Assembly: GCF_051105105.1 (NCBI RefSeq)
Contig: NZ_CP185339.1
DNA from: Nannocystis pusilla
Lineage (GTDB): Bacteria > Myxococcota_A > Polyangia > Nannocystales > Nannocystaceae
Direction: 5' to 3' (one strand)
Length of the DNA: 64,000 nucleotides
Below the pieces are notes generated by a model. It was not told the origin of the DNA and did not search any database. It worked only from the letters and a program-made list of their open reading frames with translations. The translations under genes and the position numbers were made by a program. Shown here in pieces: positions 1,686 through 59,882 of the stretch; position 1 is the first letter of the stretch, and each line of letters starts with the position of its first letter.

Positions 1686-1815
1686 ATGGGACATGCCCGA
1701 AAGGACATTTCGATACAGCATGACTGATGGAGCATGTCCGATGCGTCACGTCCGAGTCACCACATCCGCGCTTCGAGGCGGCCTCTTCTTCTTTCGAGGA
1801 CATGTCCGGCGCGGC
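1686..1815. repeat. intergenic array of 14-bp-periodic GGACATGYCC-core repeat units (convergent gene ends)
   Basis: Direct read: ggacatgcccgaaa/ggacatttcgatac/agcatgactgatgg/agcatgtccgatgc/... then gaggacatgtccgg at about 1797. Confidence 0.7.
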
Positions 1816-1847
1816 TTCATGCACGAATCAGCCTGAGGGGCGCGCTC

Positions 1848-2165
1848 TCACGAGAGGGACGCGAGCGCCGCGACGATCTCGGAGAGGTTCCGCTTCGGGC
1901 ACCGGACCACGGCCCCCTCTCGTCGCGAGTCGTTGCCGGCCTCGTGGAACAACACCACGATCGCTTGATACGCGTGATCGAGGACCTCGGAGCCGAGGCC
2001 GTCGGGCAGGACTTGATCGACCAGCACGACGTCATACCGCCGGGTCGTCAGCCGCCCCTGGGCCTCCGCGACGCTGGCCGCCAGCGTGACCTCGTGCTCG
2101 GCGAGAGACTGCTCGGCGAAGACGCGGACGAACGCTGGGTCGGCAGCGACGAACAGGACTCGCAT
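1848..2165 (-). CDS. single-domain response regulator (CheY-like receiver)
   Basis: 105 aa; MRVLFVAADP...YDVVLVDQVLPDG has receiver-domain acidic pocket and phospho-acceptor Asp context. Confidence 0.8.
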   Translation of the reverse strand: MRVLFVAADPAFVRVFAEQSLAEHEVTLAASVAEAQGRLTTRRYDVVLVDQVLPDGLGSEVLDHAYQAIVVLFHEAGNDSRREGAVVRCPKRNLSEIVAALASLS

Positions 2166-2206
2166 CCTGCGAGGCTAGCACTCCGACGCACGGCTCGCGT
2201 CGACCC

Positions 2207-2950
2207 CTAGCGGCCTGACAGGAAGCCGAGGCGCTGGAACAGCGGCTCGGGGGTGTGGCGGACGACGAACAGGATCGGGCGCCAGTACCACGGGACGAAC
2301 GCGACGACGGCCCGGCGGGCGATGGCGCGGTCGATATCACGGGCGGCGCGCTGCGGGGTGGCGAACAGGGCGTTCTTGGCGTGGCCGACGGTCATGGGCG
2401 TGTCGACCGGGCCGAGCTTGAGCGTGGTGACGCTGACGCCCGCGGGGTAGAGGCGGCTGCGCAGGCCCTGCAGGTAGACGTGCAGCGCCGCCTTGGCGGA
2501 GCCGTAGGTGTAGTTGCGCGGGCGGCCGCGCTCGCCGGCGACCGAGGTGATGACCGCGAGGGTGCCGCTGCGCTGGCGCTCGAGCACGCCCGCGAGCGGG
2601 ATCAGCACCGCGATCACCGAGAGGAAGTTGACTTGGACGATCCGCGCGGCCTCGGCGACGTCGTGCTCGCTGCGCTGCTGATCGCCGAGGTCGCCGTGGG
2701 CGACGAGGACGACGTTGACGCGGCCGCCGAGCGCGGCCACGGCCTCGTTCGCCAGCGCCTCGGCGCGCGCGAGGTCGGTGAAGTCGCCCGCCCCGGTGGT
2801 GACCTCGGCGCCGGCGCAGCGGGCGGCCACGGCCGCGAGCTTGTCGGGATCCCGGCCGACCAGGTGGAGCCGATCGCCGCGCGCGGCCCAGCGCGCGCAC
2901 ACCTCGGCGGCGATGGCGGAGGTGGCCCCGAAGACGATGATGTGGCGCAT
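2207..2950 (-). CDS. short-chain dehydrogenase/reductase (SDR) family oxidoreductase
   Basis: It is the C-terminal 247 aa of ORF 2207..4945, starting at MRHIIVFGATSAIAAE (Rossmann TGxxxGxG-like motif). YTYGSAKAAL contains the YxxxK catalytic motif. The upstream part of that ORF is a frame artefact over the kinase gene. Confidence 0.85.
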   Translation of the reverse strand: MRHIIVFGATSAIAAEVCARWAARGDRLHLVGRDPDKLAAVAARCAGAEVTTGAGDFTDLARAEALANEAVAALGGRVNVVLVAHGDLGDQQRSEHDVAEAARIVQVNFLSVIAVLIPLAGVLERQRSGTLAVITSVAGERGRPRNYTYGSAKAALHVYLQGLRSRLYPAGVSVTTLKLGPVDTPMTVGHAKNALFATPQRAARDIDRAIARRAVVAFVPWYWRPILFVVRHTPEPLFQRLGFLSGR

Positions 2951-3200
2951 CCGCGGAAGGTAGCGCGGCCCGGCCCGCGATGGCGAGAGGATGTTCGCGC
3001 CGGCGGTCGGCGGCTCGTGGCCTGGGCCGCTCGGGCAGGTCCGCGGCCGCCCGGCGCTCGCTGGCGGCTGCACCTGGCAGGCCGCGAGGCCGCGGCGAAC
3101 CTGCTCGTGACCCGCCGGCTGCGCATTCGGACATGCCCCCGACGACATGCTTCTAAAAGCATGGCGATTCGGACATGCTCGAACGAGCAGCCCGGTTCCC

Positions 3201-6093
3201 TCACCGCTTCGGCTGCGCCGACGCGGCGCCGCCGGGCGTGACGTTCTCGTCGCGCCAGGCGGCGGCCTCGGCGAGGTCGAGCGAGCCGGCGGGTCCCAGG
3301 GCGGTGAAGGTGGCGACGGCCTGCTCGACGAGCGCGCGCGCGCGGACGCGATCGCGCTCGGACAGCCACAGCGCGCGGGCCAGGCCGTACTCGGCGCGGC
3401 CGCGCAGGAGCGCGTGGACGTCGGTGCCGGCGCGGATGGCCAGGGCGCGTTCGAAGGCGGGGATGGCGGTCGCGTAGTCCTTGGCGTAGAGGCCCCACTC
3501 GCCCAGGCCCAGCAGCGAGCGCGCGACCTCGGCGTGGTCCTCGCCGAGGACGCGGCGGCGGATCGCCAGCGAGCGATCGATGACCGCGCGCGCCGGGTCG
3601 AGCTGGCCGGCCTCGAGGTACGACGCGGCGAGGTTGTCGAGCTGCGTGCACAGCTCGATGTGGTCGGGGCCGTGGCGGCGCTCGAGCGAGCGCACGACCG
3701 CCTCGAAGGCGGCGACGGCGTCGATGGAGCGGCGGGCGCGGGCCAGCGCCGCGGCGATGTTGCCCTGGAACACGACCACGAGCGGGTCGTCCTCGCCGCG
3801 GGTGCGGAGGATGATGTCGAGGCCGCGGCGCCAGGTCGCCAGCGCGGCGTCGAAGTCGGTGAGGACGAAGTAGAGGTTGCCCTCGTAGCGCAGGGCCGCG
3901 GCGACCTCGGGGTGCTCGGGGCCGAAGGCGCGCTCGAGGCGGGCGCGGCTGTCCGGAAGGACAGCCTTGGCGCGGTCGAACTCCTGGCGGGCCCACAGGG
4001 CGGTGCCGAACCACTGGCGGGCGCGCGCGGTGGCCGGGTTGTCGGCGCCGTGGAGGGCGTCGTAGGCGGCGACGCTGCGCTCGATGAGCGCCTCGGACTC
4101 GGCGTAGCGCCCGAGCGACCACAGCAGCTTGCTGCGGGCGAGGGCGAGCAAGGCGGCCGCGCCGTCGTCGGGGGCGCGGGTCTGGGCGGCGCCCGCGATC
4201 TCGAGCCAGACCTCGGCGTGGTCGAGGCGGCCGAGGGTGTTGAGGGTGTCGACGAGGGCGGCCGCGGCGTCGCGGGCGACCGCGTCCTGACGGCTGGCGG
4301 TGGCGGTGGTGAAGGCGGCGCGCAGGCTGGTCTCGGCCTCGGCGTCGCGCTGGACGAGCGCGAGCAAGCGGCCGCGTGCGAGCTGGGCCTCGGCGACCGC
4401 GGGGGCGTAGGCGGCGGCCTCGGCGGCGGCGACGGCCTGGTCGGCGCCGAGCAGGCCGGCCTCGTAGCGGCCGGTGTGCTCGAGCGCGGCGACGTTGGCG
4501 AGCGCGCGGCGGACGCCGTCGACGGCCAGCGCGGTGGCCGGATTGGCGGGCGGCGGCACCTCGGCGCGGAGCACCTCGACGTTGGCGCAGCGCTCGATCG
4601 GCGGCAGCGCGGCCACCGCGTCGACCGCCCGCTCGACCACGCCGGCGTCGGCGGCCACCAGCAGGTCGGTGACGGCCCTGACCTCATGGACATGTCGTGA
4701 AAGACAGGCCATGCGCAGGTCGAGCAGGTGCTCCGACTGCTCGCCGCGCGCGTGGGCCTCGCAGGCGTCGCGGTGCATGGCGACGATCGCCTCGGCGCGG
4801 GCATCGAGGCGGCCGGCCACGTGCGACCACGCCTCGTCGGCGAAGCCGAGCCCGCTGGCCTCGAAGGCGTCGGCGGCGGCGTCGCGGCGGGCCGGGTCCC
4901 ACACGCCGACCAGGCGCGCCTCGCCGCCGAGGCAGCGGCCCTCATCCTGGAGGCTCCACGCGGCCGCGGCCAGGCCGATCACCGCGCCGAGGCCGAGGCC
5001 GACCACGGCATGGCGCGCGCGCACCTGCGGGCCGGCGAGGTCGGCGAGCAGCGCGTCCATGCTCGGGTAGCGGGCGTCGGGGACGCGCGCGAGGCCGCGG
5101 GCGAGCACCCGGTAGAGCCGCTTGCCCACGCGCGGGCCGACCTGCACGCGCTCGGGCAGGTCGGCGACCAAGACCTGGTCGCGGAGCTCGTCGACGGTGG
5201 TGCCGGAGAACGGCCGCGAGCCCCACAGCGCCTCCCACAGCGCGACGCAGAAGCTGAACTGGTCGGTGCGGGCGTCGACCTGTCCGCCGAGCCATTGCTC
5301 CGGGGCCATGTACGCCGGGGTGCCGGCGAAGAAGACGGTGCGCTCGACGCCGACGTCGACGAGCTCGTCGCCGGCGGGCCGCTCGGCCTGCTCGGCGAGC
5401 GCGGCCAGGCCGAAGTCGACCACGCGGACGCGGCCCTCGAGGTCGACGAGGACGTTGCCGGGCTTGAAGTCGCGGTGCGTGAGGCCGACGCGGTGCGCCG
5501 CCGCCAGGCCGCGCCCGGCCTCCGAGAAGACGGTGAGGATGTCCTGCTGCGAGCGCTCGCGGTCCTCGAGCCAGGCCGACAGGGTGACGCCGCGGACGAA
5601 CTCCATGGCGATGAACAGCTCGTCGCCGATCGTGCCGGCCTCGTAGACCTGGACGACGTTGGGGTGCGACAGGCGGGCCAGCGCCTGCGCCTCGCGCAGC
5701 AGGCGGGCTTGCAGGCGCTCGTCCTGGCGGTGGTGCGAGCGCACGACCTTGATGGCGACGCGGCGCTCGAGCACCTCGTCGTAGCCCGAGAGGACGACGC
5801 CCATGCCGCCCTCGCCGAGCTCGCTCAGGATCGCGTAGCGGCCGATCCGGCGCGACTGGCGGATCAGCGAGTCTTCGAGCGGCGCCGCGGCGCCGCGCAG
5901 GCCGACACCCGAGGCCGCGTGGAGCGGCGTGCTGTCCCTTCGACCAGGTGCCGCGAGGGCCGTCTCTTCGATCGGGCTCGCGCGGGCCCGGGCGGTGACG
6001 TTCCAGCGCCGGCGACTTGGTGTCGGTAGTCGCGAGCAGGTCCGGGTCCGAGGGCCCGGAGCGCTTGTCGTCGGGCGAGTGGGCACCCACCAT
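3201..6093 (-). CDS. Ser/Thr protein kinase with C-terminal TPR repeats; N-terminus interrupted by +1 frameshift near 6000
   Basis: Kinase subdomains present (GEGGMGVV, AIKVV, HRDFKPGNVLV, DFGLA, GTPAYMAPEQ), then about 500 aa of TPR-like repeats. The kinase frame has no start codon between 5860 and 6000. The ATG at 6093 opens MVGAHSPDDKRSGPSDPDLL in the adjacent frame, which joins the kinase frame at GAACGTC around 6000. Confidence 0.8.
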
Positions 6094-6303
6094 GGAGGAC
6101 GGTACACGACCTGTGCCCGTGCGGCGAGGACGCTATCGCGCACGAGCGCGAGCGCCCCACCCCGCGTGCGCCGGGCCACGCGCGGACCTATGCCCGTCCC
6201 CGGCGGCCGGCGCACGAGATGTCTTTTCAGACAGGTCCGAGAGCCGACAGACGACCGCCCGGGCAGGTCGCCAGATCTGCCCGGGCGGTCCGGTGGGTGA
6301 GGA

Positions 6304-8145
6304 TTACTTGCAGGCCTTGGTGATGCCGACCTTGAGCTGGCAGATCGCGTCGCTGTAGGCGGCGGTGAACACGTCGCGGCGGACGCCGGTCTGGCTCTTG
6401 CCGAGGTCGTCGAGGTCGGGGCTCAGCTGCCCGAGCTTCTCGCGCAGGGTCGTCTCGGTGGTCCACAGCTCGGCGGCGGCGCGGCGGATCTCGACGTCCT
6501 CGTCGAAGGCGTTGAACACCGTGACGATCGGCTCCTTGTCGCCGCCGAGCGGCACGCCCGCCGACTTGACCGCGAGGTTGAAGCGGTCGGAGTCGAGCGC
6601 GAGCAGGACGTTGTAGTCATCACGCTTCGGGTAGAGCGCGCGGACGGCGTCGAGCTCGTTGTCGTCGAAGTCGCCCTCGCCGAGGTTGTTGTCGATCTCC
6701 CAGCGGAGGTCGTCTTCCTTGTTGATCATGCCGACGTTGTGGCAGCCCATGCACGACTTGCCGTTGCGGACCACGCCGTCCGGGGCGTTCTTGTCCTGCA
6801 CGATCTGGATCGGCGCGTCGTCGATGCGGACGCCGGCGGCGTCGACGATCATGTAGCCCTGGAGCCCGTTCGGCAGGCTGTAGATGATCTCGCTGCCGTC
6901 CTCGACGAAGTTGAACGGGTCGACGAACACGTTGGCGTCGCCGGCGTTGCTCTGGAAGTCGTAGCTGATCCAGTAGACGCGGTTGCTGGCGTTCGGGAAG
7001 TCGTGGCGCTCGATCACGCGGTGGTTCTCGGACACGCCCGACTCGTGGAACGCGGCGCGCGCGACCCGGTTCGGGTTGGTCTCGATCTCCTCGGTGACGT
7101 TGGCCTCCACGTCGATGCCGAAGCTCTGCTCGAGCTCGAAGCGGGTCCGCGGGATCCGCAGGATGTCGTGGTAGAGCGGCGGCTGCGCGGAGACCTCGAC
7201 GAACGCGTCGGCCTGCAGCAGGAAGAACTTGGTGTTGGTCGCCTGCTTCACGTCCTCGGCGCTGTCGCCGATGAACTCGATCGCGTACGGGTCCTTGTCG
7301 GCGATGAGCTCCCAGGTGTCGCGGAACTCCTCGACGAAGGTGTTGGTCTCGATGTCGAGCACGCGGCCCGGCGCGTCCCAGTCGTAGTCGCGGATGTCGA
7401 TGCGGAAGATCAGCTTGTCCGGATCGATCGCCACCGGCGGCACGACCTTGATCTCGTTCGACAGGCTGTTGGCCAGCTTCGACAGGGCGTGGCGGTAGAT
7501 CTCGATCTGGTCGTCGCACCAGCCGTAGTTGTAGAGGTGGACCAGGCTGAAGTAGCGGATGAAGGGCCGCGCGTCCGCCGAGATCTCCTGCGTGTTGAGG
7601 AGGTCGTTGCGGATCAGGTCGATCACCTGCGTGCGGGTCATCCACGGGTTCTCGCCGCACCCGGTCACGCCGGCGCACTCGGCGATCCACTGCTCGACCG
7701 CGCGGATGTCGTCCTCGGTCGGCCGCGGCTCCTGGCCCTCGGGCGGCATCGGCAGCATGGTCGCGGCCATGCGGCGATAGATCGCCGAGTTGTTCGGCTC
7801 GCCGGGCACGACCTTGCCGTTCGAGATCAGCGCGTCGAGGTTGGTGATGTAGTTGATGCTGCCGAGGGCCGCGCTGTCGGCCCCGTGACACTGCTTGCAG
7901 TTCTTGTCGAGGATGTTGAGGGTCTGCGCCGACAGCTCGCCGCAGTTGGCCTCGCCCTGCTCGCCGTCACCGCCGGTGCTGCTGCCGCCGTCAGTGCCGC
8001 CGCCGGCGGTCGAGCCCCCGGTGCCCTCGGTCTCGTCGCCGCTGTCGTTGCCCGGCAGGACGACGGTCTTGCAAGCGCCGCCCACCATCAGCGCGAGCGC
8101 TGCGGCGGAGATCAGCGGGATCGATGAGTAGAATCGTTGAGTCAT
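6304..8145 (-). CDS. secreted protein with two CXXCH haem-binding motifs, planctomycete-type cytochrome-c domain / DUF1592-like architecture
   Basis: 613 aa with an N-terminal signal or lipoprotein-like peptide. CKQCH near the N-terminus is followed by VVPGEPNNSAIYRRMAATMLPMPP, which is PSCyt1-like. A second CMGCH lies near the C-terminus. Confidence 0.75.
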   Translation of the reverse strand: MTQRFYSSIPLISAAALALMVGGACKTVVLPGNDSGDETEGTGGSTAGGGTDGGSSTGGDGEQGEANCGELSAQTLNILDKNCKQCHGADSAALGSINYITNLDALISNGKVVPGEPNNSAIYRRMAATMLPMPPEGQEPRPTEDDIRAVEQWIAECAGVTGCGENPWMTRTQVIDLIRNDLLNTQEISADARPFIRYFSLVHLYNYGWCDDQIEIYRHALSKLANSLSNEIKVVPPVAIDPDKLIFRIDIRDYDWDAPGRVLDIETNTFVEEFRDTWELIADKDPYAIEFIGDSAEDVKQATNTKFFLLQADAFVEVSAQPPLYHDILRIPRTRFELEQSFGIDVEANVTEEIETNPNRVARAAFHESGVSENHRVIERHDFPNASNRVYWISYDFQSNAGDANVFVDPFNFVEDGSEIIYSLPNGLQGYMIVDAAGVRIDDAPIQIVQDKNAPDGVVRNGKSCMGCHNVGMINKEDDLRWEIDNNLGEGDFDDNELDAVRALYPKRDDYNVLLALDSDRFNLAVKSAGVPLGGDKEPIVTVFNAFDEDVEIRRAAAELWTTETTLREKLGQLSPDLDDLGKSQTGVRRDVFTAAYSDAICQLKVGITKACK

Positions 8146-9651: not shown

Positions 9652-12600
9652 TTAGTAATTCGAATTACCAAATGAACGCTCGCAGGCGCCGGCCCGTGCC
9701 TCGGCCACGTCGTCGGCCTCTCCGAGGTGGCGCCGGCGCTCCGCCGGCAGCAGGCACGCGCGCGTGGCGGCGGCGAGGCGCGCGCGCAGGCCCTCGCCGG
9801 GCCGCGGCCACACGGCGACGCGGCCGTCGGCGCCGGCCGAGGCGAGGCGGTCGCCGCCGGCGTCGTACGCGAGGGCGTTGACGCCGCCGCCGTGGCCCGC
9901 GAGCAGTTCGGGCCCGGCGTCGCCCTGCAGGGACCAGAAGAGGAGCGCGCCGTCAGCCGCGCCGGCGACGATCCAGCCGTCGCGCGGGTCCCAGGCCACG
10001 CTCGTCAGCGCCGCCGAGGCCCGCCCCAGCTCGGTGCGCACGCCGGTGGCGGCCGCCACGCGGATCAGCGCCCTGCCCTCGCCCGCGACCGCGAGCGCGT
10101 CGCCAGCGGGGCTCCACGCCAGCGCGCGCAGCGGGTGGCCGAGCTCGATGAACACCGTCTGTTCGACGCGCACCAGCACGAAGCCGGAGGCGGTGACGGC
10201 CGCCAGCCGCTCGTCGACCGGCGACCACGCCATGCCGGTGATGGCCCCGCGGCTTTGCGGCGCGCGGGACGGATCGAGCATGTCCTTGAAGTCATGTCCC
10301 GAAGGCCAGAGGAAGAAGGCGCCCTCGCTGCCGCCGGCGGCCAGACGATCGGCGCGCGGATCCCAGGCCAGCGCGGACACCGGGCGGCGATCGACGCTGA
10401 CGCGCCGCGTCGCCCCCTCGCCGCGGGGGATCCAGGTGACCGCGCCGCTGTCGTCGGCGACCGCGAGCTCCTGCCCGTCGCGCCGCCAGGCCAGCGCCAG
10501 CGCGGTGCCGGCGTGGTCGCGCCGACGCACCGGGCCGTCGTCGGTCGGCAGCAGCCACACGCTGCGCGCGCCGGCGGCGGCCAGGGCGGTGCCGTCGGGG
10601 CTCCACGCGAGCGCGTGCACGGCCGCGCCGAGGTCGTGCTCCCGCAGGGCGGCCGGGGCGAGCCGCCACACCCGCGCGCTGCCGTCGTCGCTGCCGGTGA
10701 TGAGCCGGACCCCCACCGGCGCGAACGCCAGCGCCCGCACCGGCCCGGCGTGCCCGCGCAGCACGTAGGGGCGCGAGGTCCCGCCGATCTTCCACACCCG
10801 CGCGCTGCCGTCGTCGCTGCCGCTGGCGAACCACCCTGTCCCGAGAGCCAGGCCGGTGACGCCGCCGTCGCCGACCACCGCGGCGACCCGCCGCGGGGTG
10901 CCGTCGACCCGCCAGACCTCGACGCCGCCGTCATCGCGGCCGATCGCAAGCTGACGCCCGTTGCGATCCCAGGCCAGCGCGCCGACGGCCGCGCCGCGAG
11001 CGACGACCACGGCCGCGCGCCCCTCCGCGACCACCCACACCTCGCCGCGCGGGCCGGCCGCGGCCACGCGCGCGCCGTCGGGGCTCCAGGCGACCGCCGC
11101 GAGCGGACCCGCGACGCCGCGCAGCGGCGTGACCCAATCGACCGCGACCAGCGACACGCCGCCGCGCGCGTCGGTGCGGAGCTGCTCGCCGCCCGGGCCG
11201 CGGCGCGGGTCGGGCGCGGGGCCGCCGGTCCCTGGCGTCGGCGGCCCGCCGGCGAGCGCGAAGCGGCGGACGTTGCCGCCGGCGTCGACCGTCTCGACCG
11301 CGCCGCGCAGATCTTCGGCGGCCGCGGCGGGCCGCGGGCTGTCCTGGGGGACAGCCGACGTGTCCGCGGGGACAGCCGCGCCGGCGACCGGCACCGCGGC
11401 GCTCGCCAGCACGACCTCGCGCGGGTGCGCGTTCGACCTGTCCGCGAGGACAGGCGCAGCGACGACCGCCGCCAATCCGGCCCCGCTCGCCGGCACGACC
11501 TCGCGCCGGCGCGCATTCGACATGTCCACGGGGACAGGCGCAGCAGCGACCGCCGCGGAGCCGGCCGCGCTCGCCAGCACGACCTCGCGCAGGTGCGCGT
11601 TCGACCTGTCCGCGGGGACAGCTCCCGCCCCCGCGCTCGGCCTGCCCTCGCGGACAGCCCCCACCGCGCCCGGCACCGCGCCGGCCGCCGGCCGGCTCCT
11701 GTCCCCCGGGACAGCCTCGATCCAGCGCACCGCCGTCACCGCGCCGTCGTGGCCGCGCAGGATCGCCTGGCTGATCGGCTCGGCCAGCACGCGCTGGGCC
11801 AGCGCGCCCGGCTCGTCGAGCTCGCGCAGCAGCAGCGCGGCGGCGGTCGGGTCGCGCGGCAGCAGCGAGAACGCGGCGTCGCGGACCCGCAGCGCGTGGG
11901 CCTGGCGCTCCGCGGCCGCGCGCTCGGCCGCCAGCTCGCCGGCTCGCGCGTCCGCGGGGGCGCTGTCGGGCGCGGCAGCCTGCGGGGCCGCGGCCCCGCC
12001 TGCGCCCGCGTCGGGCTGCGCCAGCGACACCCCGAGCGCGACCAGCCCCGCCGCGGCGGCCGCGGCCCCGCCGGCGATCAGCCACGTCCGCGCGGGCACC
12101 GGCTCGGGGCCCTCGGCGAAGCGTCGCCGCGGCTGCAGAGCCGCGAGCAGCTCCTCCATCGTCGGCCAGCGCTCGGCTGGCTTTTCGGACAGCCCGCGGA
12201 TGATTGCGCGGCGCACGCGCAACGGCACGCGACTTTCGCGCGGAATGGGCGCGATCTCGACCTGCCCGAAGCGCGGAAGCGAGCCGAACGGCCGCAGACC
12301 GAACAAACCTTCGAACAGCGCCACGCAAAAGCTGAATTGGTCGGAGCGCGGCTCGGCGTTGCCGGTGCGCTGCTGCTCGGGCGCCATGTAGGCCGGCGTG
12401 CCGAGGATGCTGCCGGTGCGCGTCAGCGGCATCAGCTCGTCGTCGAGGGCCTCGCCGGCATCCATGGCGCAGGTGAGCCCGAAGTCGAGGACACGGGCGC
12501 GATCGCGGCTGTCGACGAGCACGTTCTCGGGCTTGAAGTCGCGGTGGAGCAGGTTGGCGTGATGCGCCGCGGCCAGCGCCCGCCCGGCCTGCAGGTACAC

Positions 12601-16488: not shown

Positions 16489-16693
16489 ACCTCGCCCATC
16501 ACCGGCGAGCCACTTCGCCACGCACGATGGACCGCAACGTCCCTCGGTCCTCCGGCTCAGCCTCGCGCTCGCCAGCGATCTCCGCGCCGCTTTACAGCCG
16601 CCGCGTTCAGCGATGAACTCGAAGGGTCCACGCCCGGCGGCGACGACCGCAGAAATGCCGGCCCAGCCCGCCGTGTTGTGCCGGAGCTCGTCG

Positions 16694-17699: not shown

Positions 17700-17960
17700 G
17701 CTGCGAGAGCATGTTTATAAAAACATGCTTCATGAGACATGTCCTCCGAATCACCCGGATCGGCGCCGCGGCCCGACCGTGCTCGCTCGGCGAACGCATC
17801 CTCGGCCCGTTCCCTGGTCGCTCGACGCTGCTGCGCGCCGCGTAGTTCGCCAAGCGGGAGCCGCTCCGCACAGTTCGCCCGTCCCGCCTCGAAGACATGT
17901 CGTATCGGACATGCCTGATGTGACATGTCCCGATCGCAATGGCCGATCCGCCATGTCTTC
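17700..17960. repeat. intergenic cluster of GACATGTCC-core units plus AT-rich hairpin AGCATGTTTATAAAAACATGCT
   Basis: Direct read at 17715-17736 (perfect 9-bp arms), then gagacatgtcctcc. At 17888 the units gacatgtcgtatcg/gacatgcctgatgt/gacatgtcccgatcg follow. Confidence 0.7.
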
Positions 17961-18781: not shown

Positions 18782-19192
18782 CTACTGCAATCCGCCCTCG
18801 CGCTCGAAGTCGAGGCTCAGCGAGTTGATGCAATAACGCAGACGTGTCGGCTGCGGACCATCGGGGAACATATGGCCCAGGTGGCCGCCGCAGCGGCGAC
18901 ACAGCACCTCGACGCGGCGCATCCCGTGGCTGGTGTCGACCCGCTCCTCGATGGCCGAGCGATCGACCGCGTCGAAGAAGCTGGGCCAGCCGCAGCCCGA
19001 GTCGAACTTCGTCGTCGCGTCGAACAGCAGCGCCTTGCAGCCGGCGCAGCGGTACTGGCCCGGCGCCTTCTCGTCCCAGTAAGCGCCCGTGAACGCGCGC
19101 TCGGTCCCCGCCTGACGCAGCACCCGGTACTGCTCCGGGCTCAGCGTCGCGCGCCACTCCGCGTCGGTCTTCTCTACCTCTCGTTCGGACAT
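18782..19192 (-). CDS. msrB: peptide-methionine (R)-S-oxide reductase MsrB
   Basis: [36 protein letters not shown]...CAGC...[12 protein letters not shown] carries the SelR fold with two CxxC zinc motifs and the catalytic RC(G)GHLGHVF. Confidence 0.9.
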
Positions 19193-19335
19193 GCCCGGAC
19201 CATAGCGCGTCTGCGCCCTCGGGGCCGCCTGCCGTGGCCTCGACGCCGGCCGCGTGGGGGTTGCCTGCCCCCCGCCGATTGTGCGTTGCAAGCCCTCTGG
19301 CCGGCCTCTACCGTGGCTTCCCAGGAGGCGACCGA

Positions 19336-25734: not shown

Positions 25735-26110
25735 CGCCGACATGTCTTTAGAGCCAGGCTCACCCGCAACCCACGTCCAGCGCCGCCCATCGCCTCGCCG
25801 ATGCCCCGCCACACCTGAATGACATGTCCCTTGAGACATCCGCTTGCCCTCGTTCGCCCCTGCCGGATGCCCCCGTGCCTTTGAATGCTCTCGGCACGGC
25901 CCTCGCATCTGTCCGTCCGGGCATCACGAAAATCTCAGAACACGTCCTGCGAGACATCCATGATGCTCGCTTGTCCCTTGTCCGCACTCTCTGCTCTACC
26001 CTAAACCGTCTTTTAAGACATGTCCCTTCAAACATCTAAACTCCAGCCCTCGACTCTACCTTGCCCACTTAAAAAATGTCCTTTCAGCCATATCCTTCGA
26101 AGATCTCGAC
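25735..26110. repeat. long intergenic region densely seeded with (G)ACATGTCC(C)TT-type units
   Basis: catgtctttagagcc, tgacatgtcccttgagacatcc, gagacatccatgatg, taagacatgtcccttcaaacatc, aaaatgtcctttcagccatatccttcg. Confidence 0.65.
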
Positions 26111-26232
26111 CCAAGCCCTCACCTCTGCGGCGCCCCGACGCGTCCTTTCCGTCATCCGCAACCAGCCCTCGCTCTGTCTGGGCGTCCCAATCGCGCCCAT
26201 CGCCTCGCCCCGCCCCGCAAGAGCGCGCCCCT

Positions 26233-29343: not shown

Positions 29344-29376
29344 GTCCCGGACCGCTCGCCCGCACCCCGGCCGCGT

Positions 29377-29415
29377 GGCCGCACGAACCTGTCCGTGCGG
29401 CCATGCGGTTTTTCT
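29377..29415 (+). terminator. putative Rho-independent terminator (GGCCGCAC-loop-GTGCGGCC then TTTTTCT)
   Basis: Direct read: an 8-bp perfect stem with a 10-nt loop, then a T-run 6 nt downstream. It lies 35 bp after the stop at 29343. Confidence 0.5.
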
Positions 29416-45643: not shown

Positions 45644-46492
45644 GGCGGCGGTCTCCGGGGGTGAAAGGACCGGCCGGACGGAGCGACGCCACCATGCGCG
45701 CAAAAGCCCCGCCGGCTCGGGCGGGGCTTCGCAGGGCGTGTGTCTCGAGGACTCTCAGCGCACGCGCACGCGACCGACCCCACCCGGAAGGGTGGTGGTA
45801 GTAGTCGCGGTGGTGGCGCGCCGGAGCATCGATTTGGGGATACACGCGGCCTGTGGAGCGGTCAAGCCGAACGCTCGTGCGGAAGCTCGTGGGCACGTGA
45901 ATCCTACACCTGCGATTGCGATCACCTTCTGCTTTCGGTCGCGTGTCGCCGACCATCGCTGCGCCCGCGACGACCTGTCCCTTCAGACATGCTTTAAGTA
46001 TTCGTGCGTCGACCTCGGAGGGCGCTCGCCCCGGACCTGACCCTTCGGCCAGCCGCAGCGCGCCCGCCGAACACCGCCATCCCGCAGCTCGGCCCGCCGC
46101 GCGGGCGAGCTCCGGCCCGCCTCGCCGCCGCGCCGGCCCGGGGCCCGACGCTCGCGGCCGTCGCGTCGCCCGCCTCGCCGCTGCAGCCGCCGCGACATGT
46201 CTCTTCGGCCAGCCTCGATCGCCGCGCCGGCGATCGCCCCTCGCCGACCTCCGCGCCGCGCACCCCGCCGCTGCAGACCGCCCCGGACATGTCCCTTCGG
46301 GCAGCTCGCCCTCCCTCGGGCCGCGGCCGAGCGCGCCGCCCCGGCGGCGCCCGGCGCCCGTGCGGAACACCGTCGCCGGGCGCCGCCAGGCCTGTCTCTT
46401 GGACCAGCCGAGGACGGAGCGCGAGCGATCGCGCGCCCCGCCTGCGTGCAGGCCCGCTTCCGGCCGTGGCCGCGCTGTCGTATCACTCCGCC

Positions 46493-47827: not shown

Positions 47828-47905
47828 CCTGCCCCCGACGATGTCTCTTACGGCATGTCCTCGGAGACATGCACGTTTAGACATGCTCAAAAGGACATGT
47901 CCATC
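47828..47905. repeat. GACATG-core 13-14-bp unit array between convergent genes
   Basis: gatgtctcttacg/gcatgtcctcgga/gacatgcacgttta/gacatgctcaaaag/gacatgtccatcca. Confidence 0.7.
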
Positions 47906-49094: not shown

Positions 49095-49503
49095 GGCCCG
49101 CGACGACCCGCCCGACAAGGGCCCCGCCCGCGCCGTGCCGGCCGGTGTGGCCGAACCCGCCCGTCATCGCCAAGGAAGGCCGCGACGGAACGCCGTTGCT
49201 CGTCCACCTCCCATCGCGGTTCAATTGAAGAAAAAACCGAGCTGCTCGCCGCGGGCGACACCTCGAGCGGCCGCTCCCCAGCCCAGGCGCAAAACGCTGG
49301 ACCGCTCGCCAGGCGCCCGCCGTGCCTCCGCCGGCGCGGGGCGCCCGTCGCTCCTGCGAAGCGGGACGGGCCCACGCGGCCGGTCACCCCGCCACGCTCA
49401 CCGCAGTCGCGCCGGCAGGTCTTGTGCCCCTCGCGCCATGTCCCGGGGGCCATGCCTTAAAGGGCATGTCTCCCGCGACATGCCCCTGGGGACCTGTCCC
49501 TCG

Positions 49504-50796: not shown

Positions 50797-50805
50797 GCCG
50801 CCGTT

Positions 50806-51711: not shown

Positions 51712-51825
51712 GACCTCGGCAAAAGAAAACCCGCCGGCCGCGGCAGAGGGGGGAAGGCCGGGCCGGCGGGTCGAGTGGATGTCTTTTCGGTCATGTGCGA
51801 ACGGACACGTGACCTCGCGCCGCGC

Positions 51826-52863: not shown

Positions 52864-53082
52864 CTGCGCGGCCTCCCCTGCGACCTGTAGGCATGATGCG
52901 CACGAGGCATCCACGCAAACACCCCTGTGTCGCCAGTCACGAGCGATCGTCATTCACATGTCCATCAAGACATGTCCAAAAGACCATTGTCCCATCACCG
53001 GGTCGTCCACCGCGATGCAGCGCCGTCTCGACGCGGCCCCGCTCGCGACCACGACCTCGCGTCGCGCCAGGCGGACCGCGGC

Positions 53083-53994: not shown

Positions 53995-54195
53995 TCACGC
54001 CTCGCATGATATGATCTCAAGGACATGTCCTATCAGTCAGATCATGAGGACAAAGGCGACGACGCCCGTCCTTCGAGACAGCCCTTCAAGCAGCGCCTGG
54101 CGAGGGTCGCATGCGCCTCGAGACATGCCCCTGAGGCCATATCCCTTCCGACATGCCCTCAAGGACATGCCATCCGGGACATGCCCCTTCATCCG
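53995..54195. repeat. intergenic arrays of GACATGCCC units with about 14-15 bp spacing
   Basis: ctcaaggacatgtcctatcagtcagatcatgaggac. Then gacatgcccctgag/gccatatcccttcc/gacatgccctcaag/gacatgccatccgg/gacatgccccttca. Confidence 0.7.
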
Positions 54196-54217
54196 CACCA
54201 GCAGCGCGCCGACCCGC

Positions 54218-57124
<2,907 letters not shown>

Positions 57125-57217
57125 AAGCCGGCCTGCTGCCGGACGGCGTTCCCGGCGCGGCCGGGTTGCGCGGAAGCGGCAGGGCGGTTAGGGTGCCGCC
57201 CACCCGAAGGAAGCGCT

Positions 57218-57778: not shown

Positions 57779-57787
57779 GGTCCCGCC

Positions 57788-58099
57788 GTGGATCGCCTGG
57801 CGATGCTCCGACAGTTCGTGGCCCAAAAGCCAGGTGAGGCGTTCCCGCGCTACGGCCTGGCCATGGAGCTGAAGCGCCGCGGGCAGCTCGCCGAGGCGAT
57901 CGTCGAGTTCCGCGAGCTCATCGCCAAGATCCCCGAGTACGTGCCCGCCTACCTGATGGCCGGCAACACCCTGGTCGAGGCCGGCGACCGCGACGGCGCC
58001 CTGCAGGTCCTCGATCAGGGCGTCCAGGCCGCGCGCGCGGCCGGCGACGCGCACGCGCTCGGCGAGCTCGAATCCGCCCGCACCGCGCTGGAAGGGTGA
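57788..58099 (+). CDS. small TPR-like protein
   Basis: 103 aa. Helical repeats of the form ...AIVEFRELIAKIPEYVPAYLMAGNTLVEAGDRDGA... Confidence 0.55.
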   Translation: MDRLAMLRQFVAQKPGEAFPRYGLAMELKRRGQLAEAIVEFRELIAKIPEYVPAYLMAGNTLVEAGDRDGALQVLDQGVQAARAAGDAHALGELESARTALEG

Positions 58100-59016
58100 G
58101 CGCCACGTCCAGGCTCGCCGACGCCGCCGCGATCGACCTGGTGTTCGCCAGTCCGCGGCGGCTGCCCAAGCCCGCGAACCTGCGCGGCCGCGTGGTCGTG
58201 CTCAACGTCGCCTTCGCGGCCGAGGGCATCGGCAGCGGCTTCGAGAAGATCACGGGCAAGTTCCTCACCGGCCTGGGCGCGCGCCTGGCCCGGTGGGTCG
58301 ACCACCACGATCACGAGCGCCACGCCCAGTTCCGCGGCGACCCGCGCTTCGTGCTCCACACCAAGGCCGAGCACGGCGCCTGCCCCGAGATCATCACGCC
58401 CCAGATGGTCGAAGAGACAGGTCCTGTCGACACCATCGTCGCCCACTTCGACCTCGACGGCCTCTACTCGGCCGCCAAGTGGCTGCTCCGCGGCGTCGAG
58501 CCCTACCCCGGCGCCGACGCCGACGCCCGCGCCGTCGACACCCGGATCGGCGAGGTCGGCCCGATCGGCGCCCTCGTCGACAAGGCGCTGCGGGCCCACT
58601 ACGAGGACACCGTCCTCCTCAACAAGATCGTCCGCTGGCTGGTCGCCGGCCGCCCGCGCGGCGCCGAGCAGGAGGCGATCGCCGCCGCCGCCGCCGACTT
58701 CGACGCCATGGCCGCCGAGGCCGCCGCGCTGGCCCGCGCCTACGTCGTCGAGGACGGCGTCGCCCTCGTGCGCGTGCCCGGCAACGCGCGCTCGTTCGAC
58801 AAGACCGAGCTGCTGCTGCTCGGCCAGGAGCGCGCCCCCGTGGCGGTCGTCATCGACGGCCAGACCCTGAACATCGCCGCCAGCTTCGCCAGCGGCCTCG
58901 ACTTCGTCGCCCTGCTCGGCCTCGGCGGCGGCATGCCGACGCGCGTCAGCGTGCCCGCCTCGCGCCTCGACGACACCCTCGTCAAGATCCGCGCGGCCCT
59001 GCGCGCGCGCGGCTGA
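58096..59016 (+). CDS. hypothetical protein
   Basis: 306 aa ORF. The start overlaps the upstream stop. No recognisable domain. Confidence 0.5.
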   Translation: MSATSRLADAAAIDLVFASPRRLPKPANLRGRVVVLNVAFAAEGIGSGFEKITGKFLTGLGARLARWVDHHDHERHAQFRGDPRFVLHTKAEHGACPEIITPQMVEETGPVDTIVAHFDLDGLYSAAKWLLRGVEPYPGADADARAVDTRIGEVGPIGALVDKALRAHYEDTVLLNKIVRWLVAGRPRGAEQEAIAAAAADFDAMAAEAAALARAYVVEDGVALVRVPGNARSFDKTELLLLGQERAPVAVVIDGQTLNIAASFASGLDFVALLGLGGGMPTRVSVPASRLDDTLVKIRAALRARG

Positions 59017-59043
59017 GCTGCCCCTCGGGACACTGTCGCATTC

Positions 59044-59280
59044 GACATGTCCCGAGAGACATTTTTGTCTCCGGGCGGGTCGGCTGTCCGCCGCGTGCCG
59101 GCGACATGTCCCGAGAGACACTCTCGTCTCGCGCGGTCTCCCGGGCCCTGCACGCGATCAACCTGTCCCGAGAGACACTCTCCGCTCCGGCGGTCACGTG
59201 TCCCGGCGCGCGGGCGCGACATGTCCCGAGAGACATCTCTGTCTCCAGGCCGGCCCTGTCGCCGCTCGCCCGCAGGGGGC
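59044..59280. repeat. higher-order tandem repeat, 4 units of about 58 bp, each built as CGACATGTCCCGAGAGACA-N5-GTCTC...
   Basis: Direct read: cgacatgtcccgagagacatttttgtctcc..., cgacatgtcccgagagacactctcgtctcg..., ctgtcccgagagacactctccgctcc..., cgacatgtcccgagagacatctctgtctcc... Confidence 0.85.
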
Positions 59281-59414
59281 GCTGACGCGCCCTCGTCCCG
59301 CGATCTCGCCCAGATCGAGAGCTCACTGGGTGTTGCAGGTCGGGGACGCAAATAGGACCCTGGCGCCCGCAGTCCGAGTGCCCACCACGGGCCGACCCCC
59401 CAGGAGAATCACAC

Positions 59415-59774
59415 ATGTCGCAACGTCCTCGTCTGTCCCTCCTCGCCGCGCTGACCGCCTTGATGCTCCCCGGCGCCGCCTTCGCCGACTCCAGCGGCAC
59501 GGCCGGCAACGTCGAAGCCGTCACCCTCTACGAGAGCAGCAGCGACAACCACGCCATGTTCAACGGCTCGGTCTCGATCGAGGAGAAGACCGGGCAAAAG
59601 CGCGACTACAAGTGGGGCGGCTCGCTGTGCCCCGGCCGCGAGCTCAGCGCCAACTCGATCAACCTGCTGTTCGAGGCCCTGCGCGCCAGGAAGCAGGTCG
59701 AGGTCACGCCCACCTACAAGGCCGGCAACGGCGGCGAGCGCTGCCTCACCGGCTTCAAGCTCGAGAACCGCTGA
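59415..59774 (+). CDS. small secreted hypothetical protein
   Basis: GGAGAA RBS and a signal peptide (LSLLAALTALMLPGAAFA). 119 aa. Confidence 0.65.
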   Translation: MSQRPRLSLLAALTALMLPGAAFADSSGTAGNVEAVTLYESSSDNHAMFNGSVSIEEKTGQKRDYKWGGSLCPGRELSANSINLLFEALRARKQVEVTPTYKAGNGGERCLTGFKLENR

Positions 59775-59882
59775 GGCCCGGCCGGCCGCCGCCCGTCGTC
59801 ACTCCCCCCGGCGACGCGCGCCGACCGGCAAGCCCCATGTCTCTTCGGCCATGTCCTTCACGACATGGCCGTTCTTACGCGC

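What the first reader, a model, noticed from the sequence alone, without database searches (positions are those of the whole stretch)
1686..59870. Pervasive, hugely over-represented 14-bp-periodic repeat family built on the palindrome GGACATGTCC
GACATGTCC has an expected count of about 0.3 in this window given the base composition, yet exact copies number at least 15 and near-copies run to dozens. The units form short tandem arrays with a 13-15-bp period (RGACATGYCCNNNN). They occur in nearly every intergenic space, whether the flanking genes are convergent, divergent or co-directional. Sites include about 1690, 3125, 6220, 17700-17960, 25740-26110, 29525, 35443, 38100, 39668, 45980-46400, 47830, 49430, 51780, 52945, 54000-54190, 59044-59280 and 59830. 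Several arrays include perfect hairpins: AGGACATGTT-N6-AACATGTCCT, AGCATGTTTATAAAAACATGCT, and TGAGGTCATGACCTCA at 29508. Two start codons sit inside units (msrB ggacATGccc, the 60524 lipoprotein gccATGctc). This pattern fits a REP/MITE-like genome-wide element, or an array-type binding site for an abundant DNA-binding protein, better than it fits individual promoters or terminators.
Basis: seen in the sequence. Interest (0 to 1): 0.7.

Follow-up and report, generated by a model that had tools for sequence, protein, structure and literature searches.

The report
Phased 14-bp palindrome arrays at gene ends
In this Nannocystis (myxobacterial) genome, short arrays of a 14-bp palindrome (core GGACATGTCC) in strict register sit just after the stop codons of many genes, which looks like a lineage-specific, sequence-read "end of transcription unit" mark in a genome with almost no classical terminators.

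Summary
GACATGTCC occurs 27 times against 0.25 expected. CATG-to-CATG distances are exactly 14, 28, 42 or 56 bp (30, 16, 10 and 5 pairs) and never 13 or 15.

The unit is a 14-bp palindrome, roughly AAGGACATGTCCTT, made of alternating half-sites GGACA/TGTCC. The window comes from a Nannocystis species. The arrays are also present in N. pusilla, N. exedens (including a region 5.5 Mb away), N. punicea, strain SCPEA4 and eight high-GC metagenome contigs. They are absent from a deeper "Nannocystis" MAG, Sorangium, Myxococcus and Kofleriaceae.

Multi-unit arrays lie 5-35 bp after stop codons, in co-directional and convergent gaps, and none lies in a divergent gap.

Orthologous arrays keep the core (74-80% identity) while the 4-nt spacers drift (38-53%). 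I found no compensatory covariation, no spacer complementarity and no clear strand bias.

Best reading: a REP/BIME- or TRIT-like 3'-end punctuation element read by a sequence-specific symmetric factor, most likely a dimeric DNA-binding protein. Neither the factor nor termination itself is shown here. I class it as a new variant of a known kind.

The parts
1673..1741 (.). Array of 4-5 phased units in the convergent gap, 15 bp after the stop of 609-1658(+). An isolated perfect GGACATGTCC lies at 1798-1807.
3127..3182 (.). 4-unit array, 19 bp after the stop of the kinase-TPR gene 3201-5804(-) and 177 bp before the next start.
6216..6251 (.). Degenerate phased array (GATG / CAGG cores, TGTC-N6-GACA), about 55 bp after the stop of 6304-8088(-).
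10274..10301 (.). 2-unit array inside the kinase-WD40 ORF. This is one of the few in-gene copies.
17705..17746 (.). 3-unit array (includes AGCATGTTTATAAAAACATGCT), 31 bp after the stop of 16655-17674(+).
17891..17960 (.). 5-unit array in the same long gap. It lies mid-gap and is an outlier for distance to the stop (217 bp).
19185..19198 (.). Single unit GGACATGCCC containing the msrB start codon (19190-19192, minus strand).
25739..26156 (+). Six dispersed, same-orientation copies of a 20-nt 1.5-unit element GACATGTCCCTTSAGACATC, spaced 56-118 bp, in a 570-bp gap.
29506..29535 (.). 2-unit array (TGAGGTCATGACCTCA plus GGGACATGTCCC), 88 bp after the stop of 29623-30915(-).
35429..35468 (.). 2-3-unit array about 20-29 bp after the stop of 33502-35412(+). 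Conserved in L002 and L004.
38098..38125 (.). Single unit plus a half unit (GACATGTCCTTCGAGTCATTGTGA), 57 bp after the stop of 35723-38041(+). Conserved in all four species.
39676..39745 (.). 5-unit array in the convergent gap, 5 bp from the stop of 39750-41069(-). Orthologous arrays have 4-5 units with different spacers.
45972..46410 (+). Five dispersed, same-orientation 1.5-unit elements (GACMTGTCYCTTCRGNCAGC) in the 891-bp divergent gap. Conserved in L001 and L002.
47849..47904 (.). 4-unit array in the convergent gap, 22 bp after the stop of 46535-47827(+).
49432..49501 (.). 4-5-unit array ending about 2-17 bp from the stop of 49504-50613(-) (17 bp for the PWM-scored units) and 328 bp before the next start.
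51777..51814 (.). Degenerate 3-unit array (GATG / CATG / CACG), 12 bp after the stop of 51826-52953(-). It is followed on the minus strand by a canonical hairpin plus T-run at 51747-51730.
52952..52979 (.). 2-unit array between two co-directional glycine-rich-domain genes.
54019..54193 (.). Perfect single unit at 54021-54030, plus a 5-6-unit array at 54105-54193 that lies 25-30 bp after the stop of 54218-57043(-).
59043..59253 (+). Four copies of a 37-nt composite repeat (GACATGTCCCGAGAGACA plus a GAGACA-N4-6-TGTCTC hairpin), spaced 57-59 bp. It starts 25 bp after the stop of 58096-59016(+).
59831..59874 (.). 3-unit array in the convergent gap, 11 bp from the stop of 59883-60482(-).
60461..60516 (.). 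3-4 phased, partly degenerate units spanning the 38-bp gap after the stop of 60521-62845(-) and overlapping the start of the next gene.

Best explanation
A Nannocystis-clade-specific family of phased 14-bp palindromic units (ideal unit AAGGACATGTCCTT, equivalent to alternating half-sites GGACA/TGTCC) marks the 3' ends of genes and operons. Arrays of 2-6 abutting units (up to 11 in a relative) lie 5-35 bp past stop codons and work in either orientation.

The units are read by sequence, not merely as a hairpin, by a symmetric factor. I think this is most likely a dimeric DNA-binding protein. It would occupy each 14-bp register (TGTCC-N4-GGACA, a 5-4-5 operator geometry) and load side by side along the array. 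That would form a boundary that stops or insulates transcription between neighbouring units, in a genome with almost no hairpin-plus-U-tract terminators.

Shown here: the family, its register, its placement, its conservation pattern and its taxonomic range. Inferred: that a protein binds, that it binds DNA rather than RNA, and that the outcome is termination or insulation.
For: Over-representation and exact 14-bp register.

The PWM is symmetric. TGTC-N6-GACA occurs 65 times and GACATGTC 46 times. AAGGACAT is among the top over-represented 8-mers in all four Nannocystis sequences and in no other Myxococcota locus.

Placement. Window arrays lie 15, 19, 31, 29, 5, 22, 17, 30, 25 and 11 bp from stops. 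The median relative position in co-directional gaps is 0.10 (P=2.5e-4). Multi-unit arrays occupy 12 of 23 gaps that contain a 3' end and 0 of 5 divergent gaps. This was replicated with database gene calls in SCPEA4, where 7 of 7 arrays lie 7-33 bp after a stop. An unlinked N. exedens region shows the same, as do 9 of 11 arrays on metagenome contigs.

Constraint on sequence rather than pairing. Core identity between orthologues is 0.80/0.75/0.74, against 0.53/0.48/0.38 for spacers and 0.75/0.65/0.55 for other intergenic DNA. Watson-Crick pairs between mirrored halves number 119 against 112.7±6 expected (p=0.17), and uncompensated C/A (11) outnumbers compensated C/G (5). Spacers show no complementarity and no direct identity. 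RNAalifold covariation terms are +2 and -0.33. Sense versus antisense folding energy is not significantly different (19 versus 11, p=0.12).

Canonical terminators are near chance level in three of four segments (5 vs 2.9, 6 vs 3.1, 0 vs 1.7; 12 vs 3.8 in the first 20 kb), and few of them lie at gene ends.

ATGT-N8-ACAT, which the array junctions spell out, is the reported consensus operator of PadR-type winged-helix dimers (PMC5050560). This is a lead only.
Against: No binding protein was identified, and no DNA-binding gene is linked to the arrays in any locus examined.

No transcript data exist, so termination is inferred from position alone.

Arrays can fold into stable hairpins (-12 to -43 kcal/mol). 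An RNA- or ssDNA-level reading with a sequence-specific partner would give the same conservation pattern.

Some arrays sit in very short co-directional gaps and overlap the next start codon (window 60461-60516; L213 9398-9425). That is awkward for a full terminator.

One degenerate array is followed by a canonical terminator.

Dispersed 1.5-unit copies occur in a divergent gap.

Units are about 2-fold enriched, not depleted, inside coding sequence (10 observed against 4.8±1.5 after synonymous shuffling).

The covariation tests have limited power: 63 junctions, many of them orthologous.
Confidence: 0.4

Rival explanations
1. RNA-level element. The arrays are transcribed as 3' UTRs, and neighbouring palindromic units pair into stem-loops. 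These act as factor-independent (U-tract-less, bidirectional) terminators and/or barriers to 3'-to-5' exonucleases, as E. coli REP/BIME elements do. Sequence conservation would then reflect a hairpin-binding protein or RNase, as proposed for mycobacterial TRIT.
For: Placement just after stop codons and in convergent gaps. Only arrays of 2 or more units, the minimum for a hairpin, show this placement, while single units are scattered. Predicted hairpins range from -12 to -43 kcal/mol. The sense strand folds slightly better (19 of 30; mean -2.4 kcal/mol). Arrays in very short intercistronic gaps fit a stabiliser better than a terminator. TRIT is a precedent: 147 copies, palindromic, at gene termini, genus-restricted (PMC3152330).
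Against: There are no compensatory changes, no spacer complementarity, and a zero or positive covariation term. The sense/antisense difference is not significant (p=0.12). Hairpin loops would tolerate 3-8 nt, yet the spacing is exactly 14 with none at 13 or 15. The 11-unit array in L101 carries GACATGCCCC in the sense strand, which gives A·C mismatches. A U-tract is generally absent.
Confidence: 0.27
2. Selfish, non-autonomous mobile repeat of the REP/REPIN type, spread by a trans-acting transposase (RAYT or other). It would be tolerated mainly where insertion is harmless, downstream of genes, and would have no host function.
For: The family is extragenic, palindromic, highly over-represented and lineage-specific. 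Unit number varies between orthologous arrays. Some relatives show recent unit amplification with identical spacers (L101, L111). Composite longer repeats contain the motif. REPs are known to form tandem arrays (PMC3116915).
Against: Arrays are retained at orthologous sites in all four species, with the core evolving more slowly than spacers and flanking intergenic DNA. That indicates purifying selection rather than decay of dead copies. REPIN hairpins commonly show compensatory changes (PMC3116915), and none were seen here. Units of 14 bp are much shorter than REPs. No Y1 or other transposase domain turned up in the Pfam scans of the window ORFs. Tolerance alone does not explain the tight 5-35 bp offset from stops.
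Confidence: 0.12
3. Operator arrays of a global transcription factor, or binding sites of a nucleoid-associated protein, that regulate the downstream promoters rather than marking 3' ends.
For: Strict register and a symmetric core suit a DNA-binding dimer. Dispersed copies lie in one divergent promoter region and are conserved there. Several start codons lie in or beside units.
Against: Many arrays lie between convergent genes, where there is no promoter. In co-directional gaps they hug the upstream stop (median relative position 0.10) and lie 177-410 bp from the next start. No multi-unit array was found in any of the 5 divergent gaps over 100 bp.
Confidence: 0.08
4. A 'drive' signal rather than a functional site: a DNA-uptake-type sequence, or a product of biased repair or methylation-linked conversion, that accumulates genome-wide and happens to pair up at gene ends, as Neisseria DUS pairs do at terminators.
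For: Genus-specific over-representation. Modest (about 2-fold) enrichment inside coding sequence beyond codon usage. The core is restored in orthologues.
Against: Intergenic density is roughly 20-fold higher than coding density. Exact 14-bp tandem register of up to 11 units is not a property of uptake sequences. The HIP1-like control GCGATCGC is not enriched. Competence in Nannocystis is unknown.
Confidence: 0.05

Closest known systems
E. coli/Pseudomonas REP elements, BIMEs and REPINs (with RAYT transposases)
   Same: Extragenic, palindromic, highly over-represented and lineage-specific. Located after gene 3' ends in co-directional and convergent gaps. Can occur as regularly spaced arrays of alternately oriented palindromes. 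From my own knowledge, BIMEs are bound by abundant DNA proteins such as gyrase and IHF, and REPs stabilise upstream mRNA.
   Different: The units here are 14 bp (REPs are about 20-40 nt) and abut in an exact 14-bp register with unconstrained 4-nt spacers. No compensatory changes were seen, whereas they are common in REPINs (PMC3116915). No RAYT was found, though whole genomes were not searched. The core is under purifying selection at orthologous sites.
TRIT ('Tuberculosis Rho-independent terminator') motif of Mycobacterium (Gardner et al. 2011, PMC3152330)
   Same: A sequence-conserved, palindromic and therefore bidirectional motif tightly associated with gene termini. Restricted to one high-GC genus that is poor in canonical terminators. 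Its authors also inferred an unknown binding factor.
   Different: TRIT is a single longer stem-loop positioned around -8 relative to the stop codon. Here there are tandem arrays of 14-bp units at +5 to +35. The sequences are unrelated, and no Rfam family reached gathering score anywhere in the window.
Canonical intrinsic (Rho-independent) terminators
   Same: Position downstream of stop codons, potential to form stable RNA hairpins, and bidirectional use between convergent genes.
   Different: There is no U-tract. The sequence is conserved rather than merely paired. The array is modular and phased.
Protein-roadblock terminators of eukaryotic and organellar systems (Reb1/TTF-I 'Sal box' repeats behind rRNA genes; mTERF). 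Cited from my own knowledge.
   Same: Repeated sequence-specific protein-binding sites placed just beyond the end of a transcription unit, working at the DNA level.
   Different: Those systems are eukaryotic or mitochondrial and serve a few loci. The present case would be bacterial and genome-wide. No protein or termination activity has been shown here.
Tandem-operator arrays of small dimeric repressors (MetJ met-boxes, omega heptads, 434-type 14-bp 5-4-5 operators, PadR ATGT-N8-ACAT boxes)
   Same: Short palindromic units in exact tandem register. The 5-4-5 half-site geometry (TGTCC-N4-GGACA) places half-sites about one helical turn apart. The junctions spell ATGT-N8-ACAT (PMC5050560).
   Different: Those arrays lie in a handful of promoters, not behind a large share of genes. 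The period differs for MetJ and omega (8 and 7 bp, from my own knowledge). No cognate regulator was identified.

Membership tests
REP / REPIN-RAYT system | Short palindromic repeat that is strongly over-represented and extragenic | tested here: met
   27 copies against 0.25 expected. Density is about 20-fold higher in intergenic than in coding DNA.
REP / REPIN-RAYT system | Replicative unit is an inverted REP doublet with a spacer that forms a hairpin, with frequent compensatory changes (PMC3116915) | tested here: not met
   Units abut at exactly 14 bp. Mirrored positions pair no more often than expected under independence (119 against 112.7±6). Spacers are not complementary. Covariation term is about 0.
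REP / REPIN-RAYT system | Cognate single-copy RAYT (IS200-like Y1 transposase) gene flanked by the repeats | not testable with these tools
   No Y1_Tnp or other transposase domain turned up in the Pfam scans of the window ORFs. Complete Nannocystis genomes could not be scanned.
BIME-type arrays | Clusters of alternately oriented palindromic units with fixed linkers, located after gene 3' ends | tested here: met
   Alternating GGACA/TGTCC half-sites with a fixed 4-nt linker length. Placement is 5-35 bp after stops. This shows architectural resemblance only. Homology to E. coli BIMEs is excluded by sequence and unit size.
Intrinsic (Rho-independent) terminator | GC-rich hairpin immediately followed by a 7-9 nt U-rich tract | tested here: not met
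   Hairpin potential is present. However, none of the 23 hairpin-plus-T-run hits coincides with an array; the nearest is the 51747-51730(-) site just downstream of the degenerate array at 51777-51814.
TRIT-like sequence-conserved 3'-end motif | Genus-restricted, sequence-conserved palindrome tightly positioned relative to stop codons | tested here: met
   Restricted to the N. exedens/pusilla/punicea/SCPEA4 clade and relatives. Offset from stops is narrow. This is the same kind of object, not the same family: the sequence, the single-hairpin architecture and the -8 position of TRIT all differ.
MITE | Defined element of 50-500 bp with terminal inverted repeats and target-site duplication, and insertion polymorphism between relatives | tested here: inconclusive
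   Arrays are made only of abutting 14-bp units, with no distinct terminal-repeat ends. They are present at the same orthologous positions in all species compared. Target-site duplications were not looked for specifically.
PadR-type operator | Inverted repeat ATGT-N8-ACAT bound by a PadR-family winged-helix dimer | tested here: inconclusive
   Array junctions read cATGTcc-N4-ggACATg, which is ATGT-N8-ACAT (PMC5050560). No PadR gene was found in the window or loci, and binding was not tested. This is a 4+4-nt resemblance and may be coincidental.
DNA uptake sequence (DUS/USS) | Over-represented 9-12-mer spread through coding and non-coding DNA, recognised by a competence receptor | tested here: inconclusive
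   There is only about 2-fold enrichment in coding DNA against a very large intergenic excess. Tandem 14-bp register is not a DUS trait. Competence could not be tested.

The most novel reading that the evidence does not exclude
Nannocystis uses a dedicated sequence-specific DNA-binding protein that polymerises on phased 14-bp arrays just beyond stop codons. The protein would act as a genome-wide, orientation-independent roadblock terminator or insulator. That would make it a bacterial counterpart of Reb1/TTF-I/mTERF-type termination, which has not been described as a general mechanism in bacteria.
Probability: 0.25. Interest if true: 0.85.

Novelty: new variant of a known kind. Interest (0 to 1): 0.6.

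Why it matters
How transcription units are ended in very high-GC bacteria, which have few hairpin-plus-U-tract terminators, is an open question. A genus-wide, sequence-defined 3'-end mark makes that question directly testable in Nannocystis by Term-seq, DNA or RNA pull-down, and reporter insulation assays.

If a protein reads the arrays on DNA, this would be a new general termination or insulation mechanism for bacteria.

There are also practical uses:
- The arrays flag true gene ends in a 73%-GC genome where ORF calling is ambiguous.
- They could supply portable bidirectional terminators or insulators for engineering myxobacterial natural-product producers.
- They serve as a signature for recognising Nannocystis-clade contigs in metagenomes.

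Tried and rejected
- **Chance or composition.** Rejected.
- **Local duplication.** Rejected. Arrays are spread over 64 kb. They also occur in an unlinked N. exedens region, in SCPEA4, and on metagenome contigs carrying different genes.
- **Recent slippage arrays.** Spacers of neighbouring units are unrelated in the window, so these arrays are old. Slippage is visible only in some relatives (L101, L111).
- **Known RNA families.** No Rfam hit at gathering score, and no tRNA or tmRNA.
- **Sigma-70 promoters.** None were predicted, and array geometry does not match -35/-10, sigma-54 or ECF spacing (inspection).
- **Start-codon or Shine-Dalgarno role.** The ORF starting at the in-unit ATG at 17925 translates to an Arg-rich N-terminus that looks spurious. 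The likely start lies downstream at a lipoprotein-like signal sequence. A few real starts do lie in units, but the enrichment is unproven.
- **HIP1-like palindrome (GCGATCGC).** Not enriched (21 against 12.4±3.7).
- **Viral collection scan.** Found only 10 single, isolated matches in contigs of 44-66% GC. No phage link.
- **Metagenome scan.** Mostly unrelated low-GC tandem repeats. Only 8 high-GC contigs were relevant.
- **Source genome.** Exact-protein look-ups for window proteins failed, so the source genome is not in that collection.
- **Literature.** Searches for this motif or for Nannocystis/myxobacterial repeats returned nothing relevant.
- **Candidate binder genes next to dense arrays.** Neighbouring genes are ordinary enzymes, secreted proteins and kinases.

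Full report
**1. Source and context**

The window has 73% GC. It encodes Ser/Thr kinases fused to TPR or WD40 repeats, planctomycete-type DUF1592/DUF1552 pairs, an ECF sigma factor and similar genes.

A class-II aminoacyl-tRNA synthetase gene at 44423-45643(-) is 97% identical to that of Nannocystis pusilla Na p29. It is 94% identical to those of N. exedens DSM 71 and N. punicea FL3. The surrounding 21 kb is syntenic in all three. The window is therefore from a Nannocystis species (Myxococcota). Its own genome is not in the protein-to-contig collection.

Every frame is open in such DNA. I therefore called genes by a GC3-based likelihood. Where possible I re-checked conclusions with database gene calls.

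**2.

- GACATGTCC occurs 27 times on both strands, which is 20 distinct sites, against 0.25 expected.
- GGACATGTCC with up to 1 mismatch occurs 30 times against 1.8 expected.
- The decisive statistic is the spacing of CATG cores. There are 30 pairs at exactly 14 bp, 16 at 28, 10 at 42 and 5 at 56. There are none at 13 or 15. Other distances average 0.85 pairs, with a maximum of 4.
- Sixteen chains of 2-5 in-register cores are present.
- A PWM scan finds 75 units in 45 clusters, against about 7 in shuffles.

**3. Anatomy**

A PWM from 100 in-array units is two-fold symmetric. It reads r-G-G-A-C-A-T-G-T-C-C-y plus two weak positions. AAGGACAT is among the most over-represented 8-mers, so the ideal unit is the 14-bp palindrome AAGGACATGTCCTT.

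The arrays can equally be seen as alternating half-sites. TGTC-N6-GACA (that is, TGTCC-N4-GGACA) occurs 65 times, and GACATGTC occurs 46 times.

Two arrangements exist:
- **Abutting arrays** of 2-6 units.
- **Dispersed, same-orientation copies** of a 20-37-nt '1.5-unit' element (GACATGTCCCTTSAGACA...). These lie in three long gaps: 25739-26156, 45972-46410 and 59043-59253.

**4.

Multi-unit arrays in the window lie 15, 19, 31, 29, 5, 22, 17, 30, 25 and 11 bp from the nearest stop codon. There are four outliers at 88-217 bp.

In co-directional gaps the arrays hug the upstream stop. The median relative position is 0.10, and 6 of 10 are at or below 0.11 (P=2.5e-4). They lie 177-410 bp from the next start.

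Among gaps over 100 bp, 12 of 23 that contain a gene 3' end carry a multi-unit array, against 0 of 5 divergent gaps (Fisher p=0.044). Sixteen of the 23 carry at least one unit. Two more hold degenerate arrays below my threshold.

Replication:
- In Nannocystis sp. SCPEA4, using database gene calls, 7 of 7 arrays lie 7-33 bp after a stop, and three fill convergent gaps.
- In N. exedens, 5.5 Mb from the syntenic locus, a 4-unit array fills a convergent gap.
- On eight high-GC metagenome contigs, 9 of 11 arrays follow a stop.

Canonical hairpin-plus-T-run terminators are near chance level in three of four segments (5 vs 2.9, 6 vs 3.1, 0 vs 1.7), and the first 20 kb has 12 against 3.8. Only two convincing ones lie at gene ends.

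**5. Taxonomic range**

The 14-bp signal is present in N. pusilla (13 pairs), N. exedens (12) and N. punicea (8) at the syntenic locus, and in SCPEA4 (11).

It is absent (0 pairs) from two separate loci of MAG GCA_016714285.1, which is labelled Nannocystis sp. but shares only 73% amino-acid identity. It is also absent from Sorangium, Myxococcus, Byssovorax, Kofleriaceae and all more distant loci. None of those shows an analogous over-represented word.

One metagenome contig with arrays encodes a cytochrome c peroxidase. Its named relatives are Nannocystis or Nannocystaceae proteins at 68-81% identity. The family is therefore genome-wide but confined to one clade of Nannocystaceae.

**6. Evolution of orthologous arrays**

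All four species keep arrays at the same intergenic positions. Unit number varies (for example 5, 5, 4 and 4 at 39.7 kb), spacers vary, and flanking DNA is barely alignable.

| Class of position | vs N. pusilla | vs N. exedens | vs N. punicea |
|---|---|---|---|
| Array core | 0.80 | 0.75 | 0.74 |
| 4-nt spacers | 0.53 | 0.48 | 0.38 |
| Other intergenic | 0.75 | 0.65 | 0.55 |

The A/T-containing core is thus held by selection in a genome under strong GC pressure. The arrays are not decaying dead copies.

**7. Is pairing or sequence conserved?**

If hairpin stability were the selected property, deviations in one half should be compensated in the half it pairs with. They are not.
- Across 63 junctions, Watson-Crick pairs number 119 against 112.7±6 expected under independence (p=0.17).
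- At the T·A position, uncompensated C/A (11) outnumbers compensated C/G (5).
- Spacers that would pair in longer hairpins are not complementary (lag 1 p=0.89; lag 2 p=0.087).
- Neighbouring spacers are not alike either, so the arrays are not recent slippage products.
- RNAalifold on orthologous arrays gives covariation terms of +2 and -0.33 kcal/mol.
- Sense RNA folds better than antisense in 19 of 30 arrays, which is not significant (p=0.12).
- An 11-unit array in a relative carries GACATGCCCC on the sense strand, which mispairs.

A hairpin would also tolerate variable loop lengths, yet the register is exact.

Taken together, these results point to recognition of the sequence by a two-fold symmetric factor. 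The 5-4-5 layout TGTCC-N4-GGACA places half-sites about 9 bp apart. From my own knowledge, that is the usual geometry for helix-turn-helix dimers, for example the 14-bp 434 operators. The junctions spell ATGT-N8-ACAT, the reported PadR-type consensus (PMC5050560). I treat this as a lead, not a test. At 14 bp, successive dimers would be rotated by about 120 degrees, so three sites span four helical turns.

**8. Mechanism I commit to**

The arrays are 3'-end punctuation marks read by a sequence-specific symmetric factor, most likely a dimeric DNA-binding protein loading side by side. They would stop or insulate transcription between neighbouring units in either direction. My confidence is 0.40.

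Steps that are shown: family, register, placement, clade restriction, core constraint and lack of covariation. Steps that are inferred: existence of the binder, DNA rather than RNA as substrate, and termination or insulation as the outcome.

Points against:
- No binder was found.
- Some arrays overlap the next start codon in short intercistronic gaps (60461-60516; L213 9398-9425).
- One degenerate array precedes a canonical terminator.
- Dispersed copies lie in a divergent gap.
- Units are about 2-fold enriched, not depleted, within genes relative to synonymous shuffles (10 against 4.8±1.5).

**9. Rivals**

- **(a) RNA-level hairpins acting as U-less terminators or exonuclease barriers with a hairpin-specific partner (0.27).** Placement and folding energies fit. 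The exact register and missing covariation do not.
- **(b) REPIN/RAYT-type selfish repeat (0.12).** The extragenic palindromic abundance fits. Core constraint at orthologous sites and the absence of the compensatory changes typical of REPINs (PMC3116915) do not. The RAYT test could not be run.
- **(c) Promoter-operator or nucleoid-protein sites (0.08).** Contradicted by convergent-gap placement.
- **(d) Uptake or repair 'drive' (0.05).**

**10. Comparison with known systems**

The closest known kinds are REP/BIME arrays and the mycobacterial TRIT motif. TRIT is a genus-restricted, sequence-conserved, palindromic motif at gene termini, for which a binding factor was also postulated (PMC3152330).

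This family behaves like those elements but is not a member of either. The units are 14 bp in exact tandem register, the sequence is unrelated, the REPIN hairpin/covariation criterion is not met, and no Rfam family matches.

I found no description of this motif or of Nannocystis repeats in the searchable literature. I therefore rate it a new variant of a known kind, with interest 0.6. The unexcluded high-novelty reading, genome-wide protein-roadblock termination in a bacterium, gets probability 0.25.

Noticed in passing
window 45701-45829 (minus strand), upstream of 44423-45643(-): There is a Thr-codon-rich leader ORF at 45829-45755(-): MLRRATTATTTTTLPGGVGRVRVR*, with 7 Thr among 8 consecutive codons. 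It is followed by a GC hairpin plus TTTT (about 45730-45701), then by the 406-aa class-II aaRS gene, which is ThrRS-like and lacks the N-terminal domains. This looks like a classical leader-peptide attenuator. The region is almost identical in all four Nannocystis species. Rfam gives only sub-threshold terminator-like hits.
   Followed up: partly
window 30939-32981 (minus strand): A 680-aa ORF matches Major Vault Protein shoulder and vault-repeat domains (PF11978 at 1.4e-27; PF17795), so it is a bacterial vault-protein homologue. My GC3 gene caller had truncated it to 31112-31741.
   Followed up: no
window 11356-11622: An 84-bp tandem repeat (3.3 copies, in frame at 28 aa) lies in the linker of the kinase-WD40 gene 9652-12954(-). 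Each copy carries GACCTGTCCGCGGGGACAGGC, which has the same TGTCC-N4-GGACA half-site pair as the intergenic family.
   Followed up: no
window coding regions (all called genes): High-scoring units (12 bits or more) are about 2-fold more frequent inside genes than after synonymous-codon shuffling (10 against 4.8±1.5; 0 of 60 shuffles reach 10). This may reflect gene-call errors, or a weak genome-wide drive toward the motif.
   Followed up: partly
window 19190, 43555, 59415, 60508; L213 9405: Several apparent start codons are the ATG of a unit (msrB GGACATGCCC; the methyltransferase GGACATGCCG; a secreted protein ACACATGTCG; a lipoprotein GGCCATGCTC). Whether this exceeds chance or ORF-calling bias is unresolved.
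   Followed up: no
window 29369-29410(+) and 51747-51730(-): These are the only two convincing canonical hairpin-plus-T-run terminators at gene ends in 64 kb. The second lies immediately downstream of a degenerate phased array.
   Followed up: partly
L101 2781-2970; L111 8318-8374; L114 7600-7687: Metagenome relatives show recent unit amplification. L101 has an 11-unit array with recurring spacers (CTAC, TCAT). L111 has four near-identical GGGGACATGTCGCG units. L114 ends in a (CGACATG)n 7-bp microsatellite built from the same core.
   Followed up: no
L005 and L212 (MAG GCA_016714285.1, labelled Nannocystis sp.): Two separate 21-kb loci of this MAG have no 14-bp register at all, yet its cytochrome c peroxidase is 81% identical to that of an array-bearing metagenome contig (L142). 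The trait therefore appears to have been gained or lost within Nannocystaceae, which makes this a useful contrast for phylogenetic profiling.
   Followed up: partly
window 51826-52953(-) and 53083-53880(-): These are tandem paralogues carrying the ALK/LTK glycine-rich domain (PF12810), about 70% identical at the DNA level. That is an unusual domain for bacteria.
   Followed up: no
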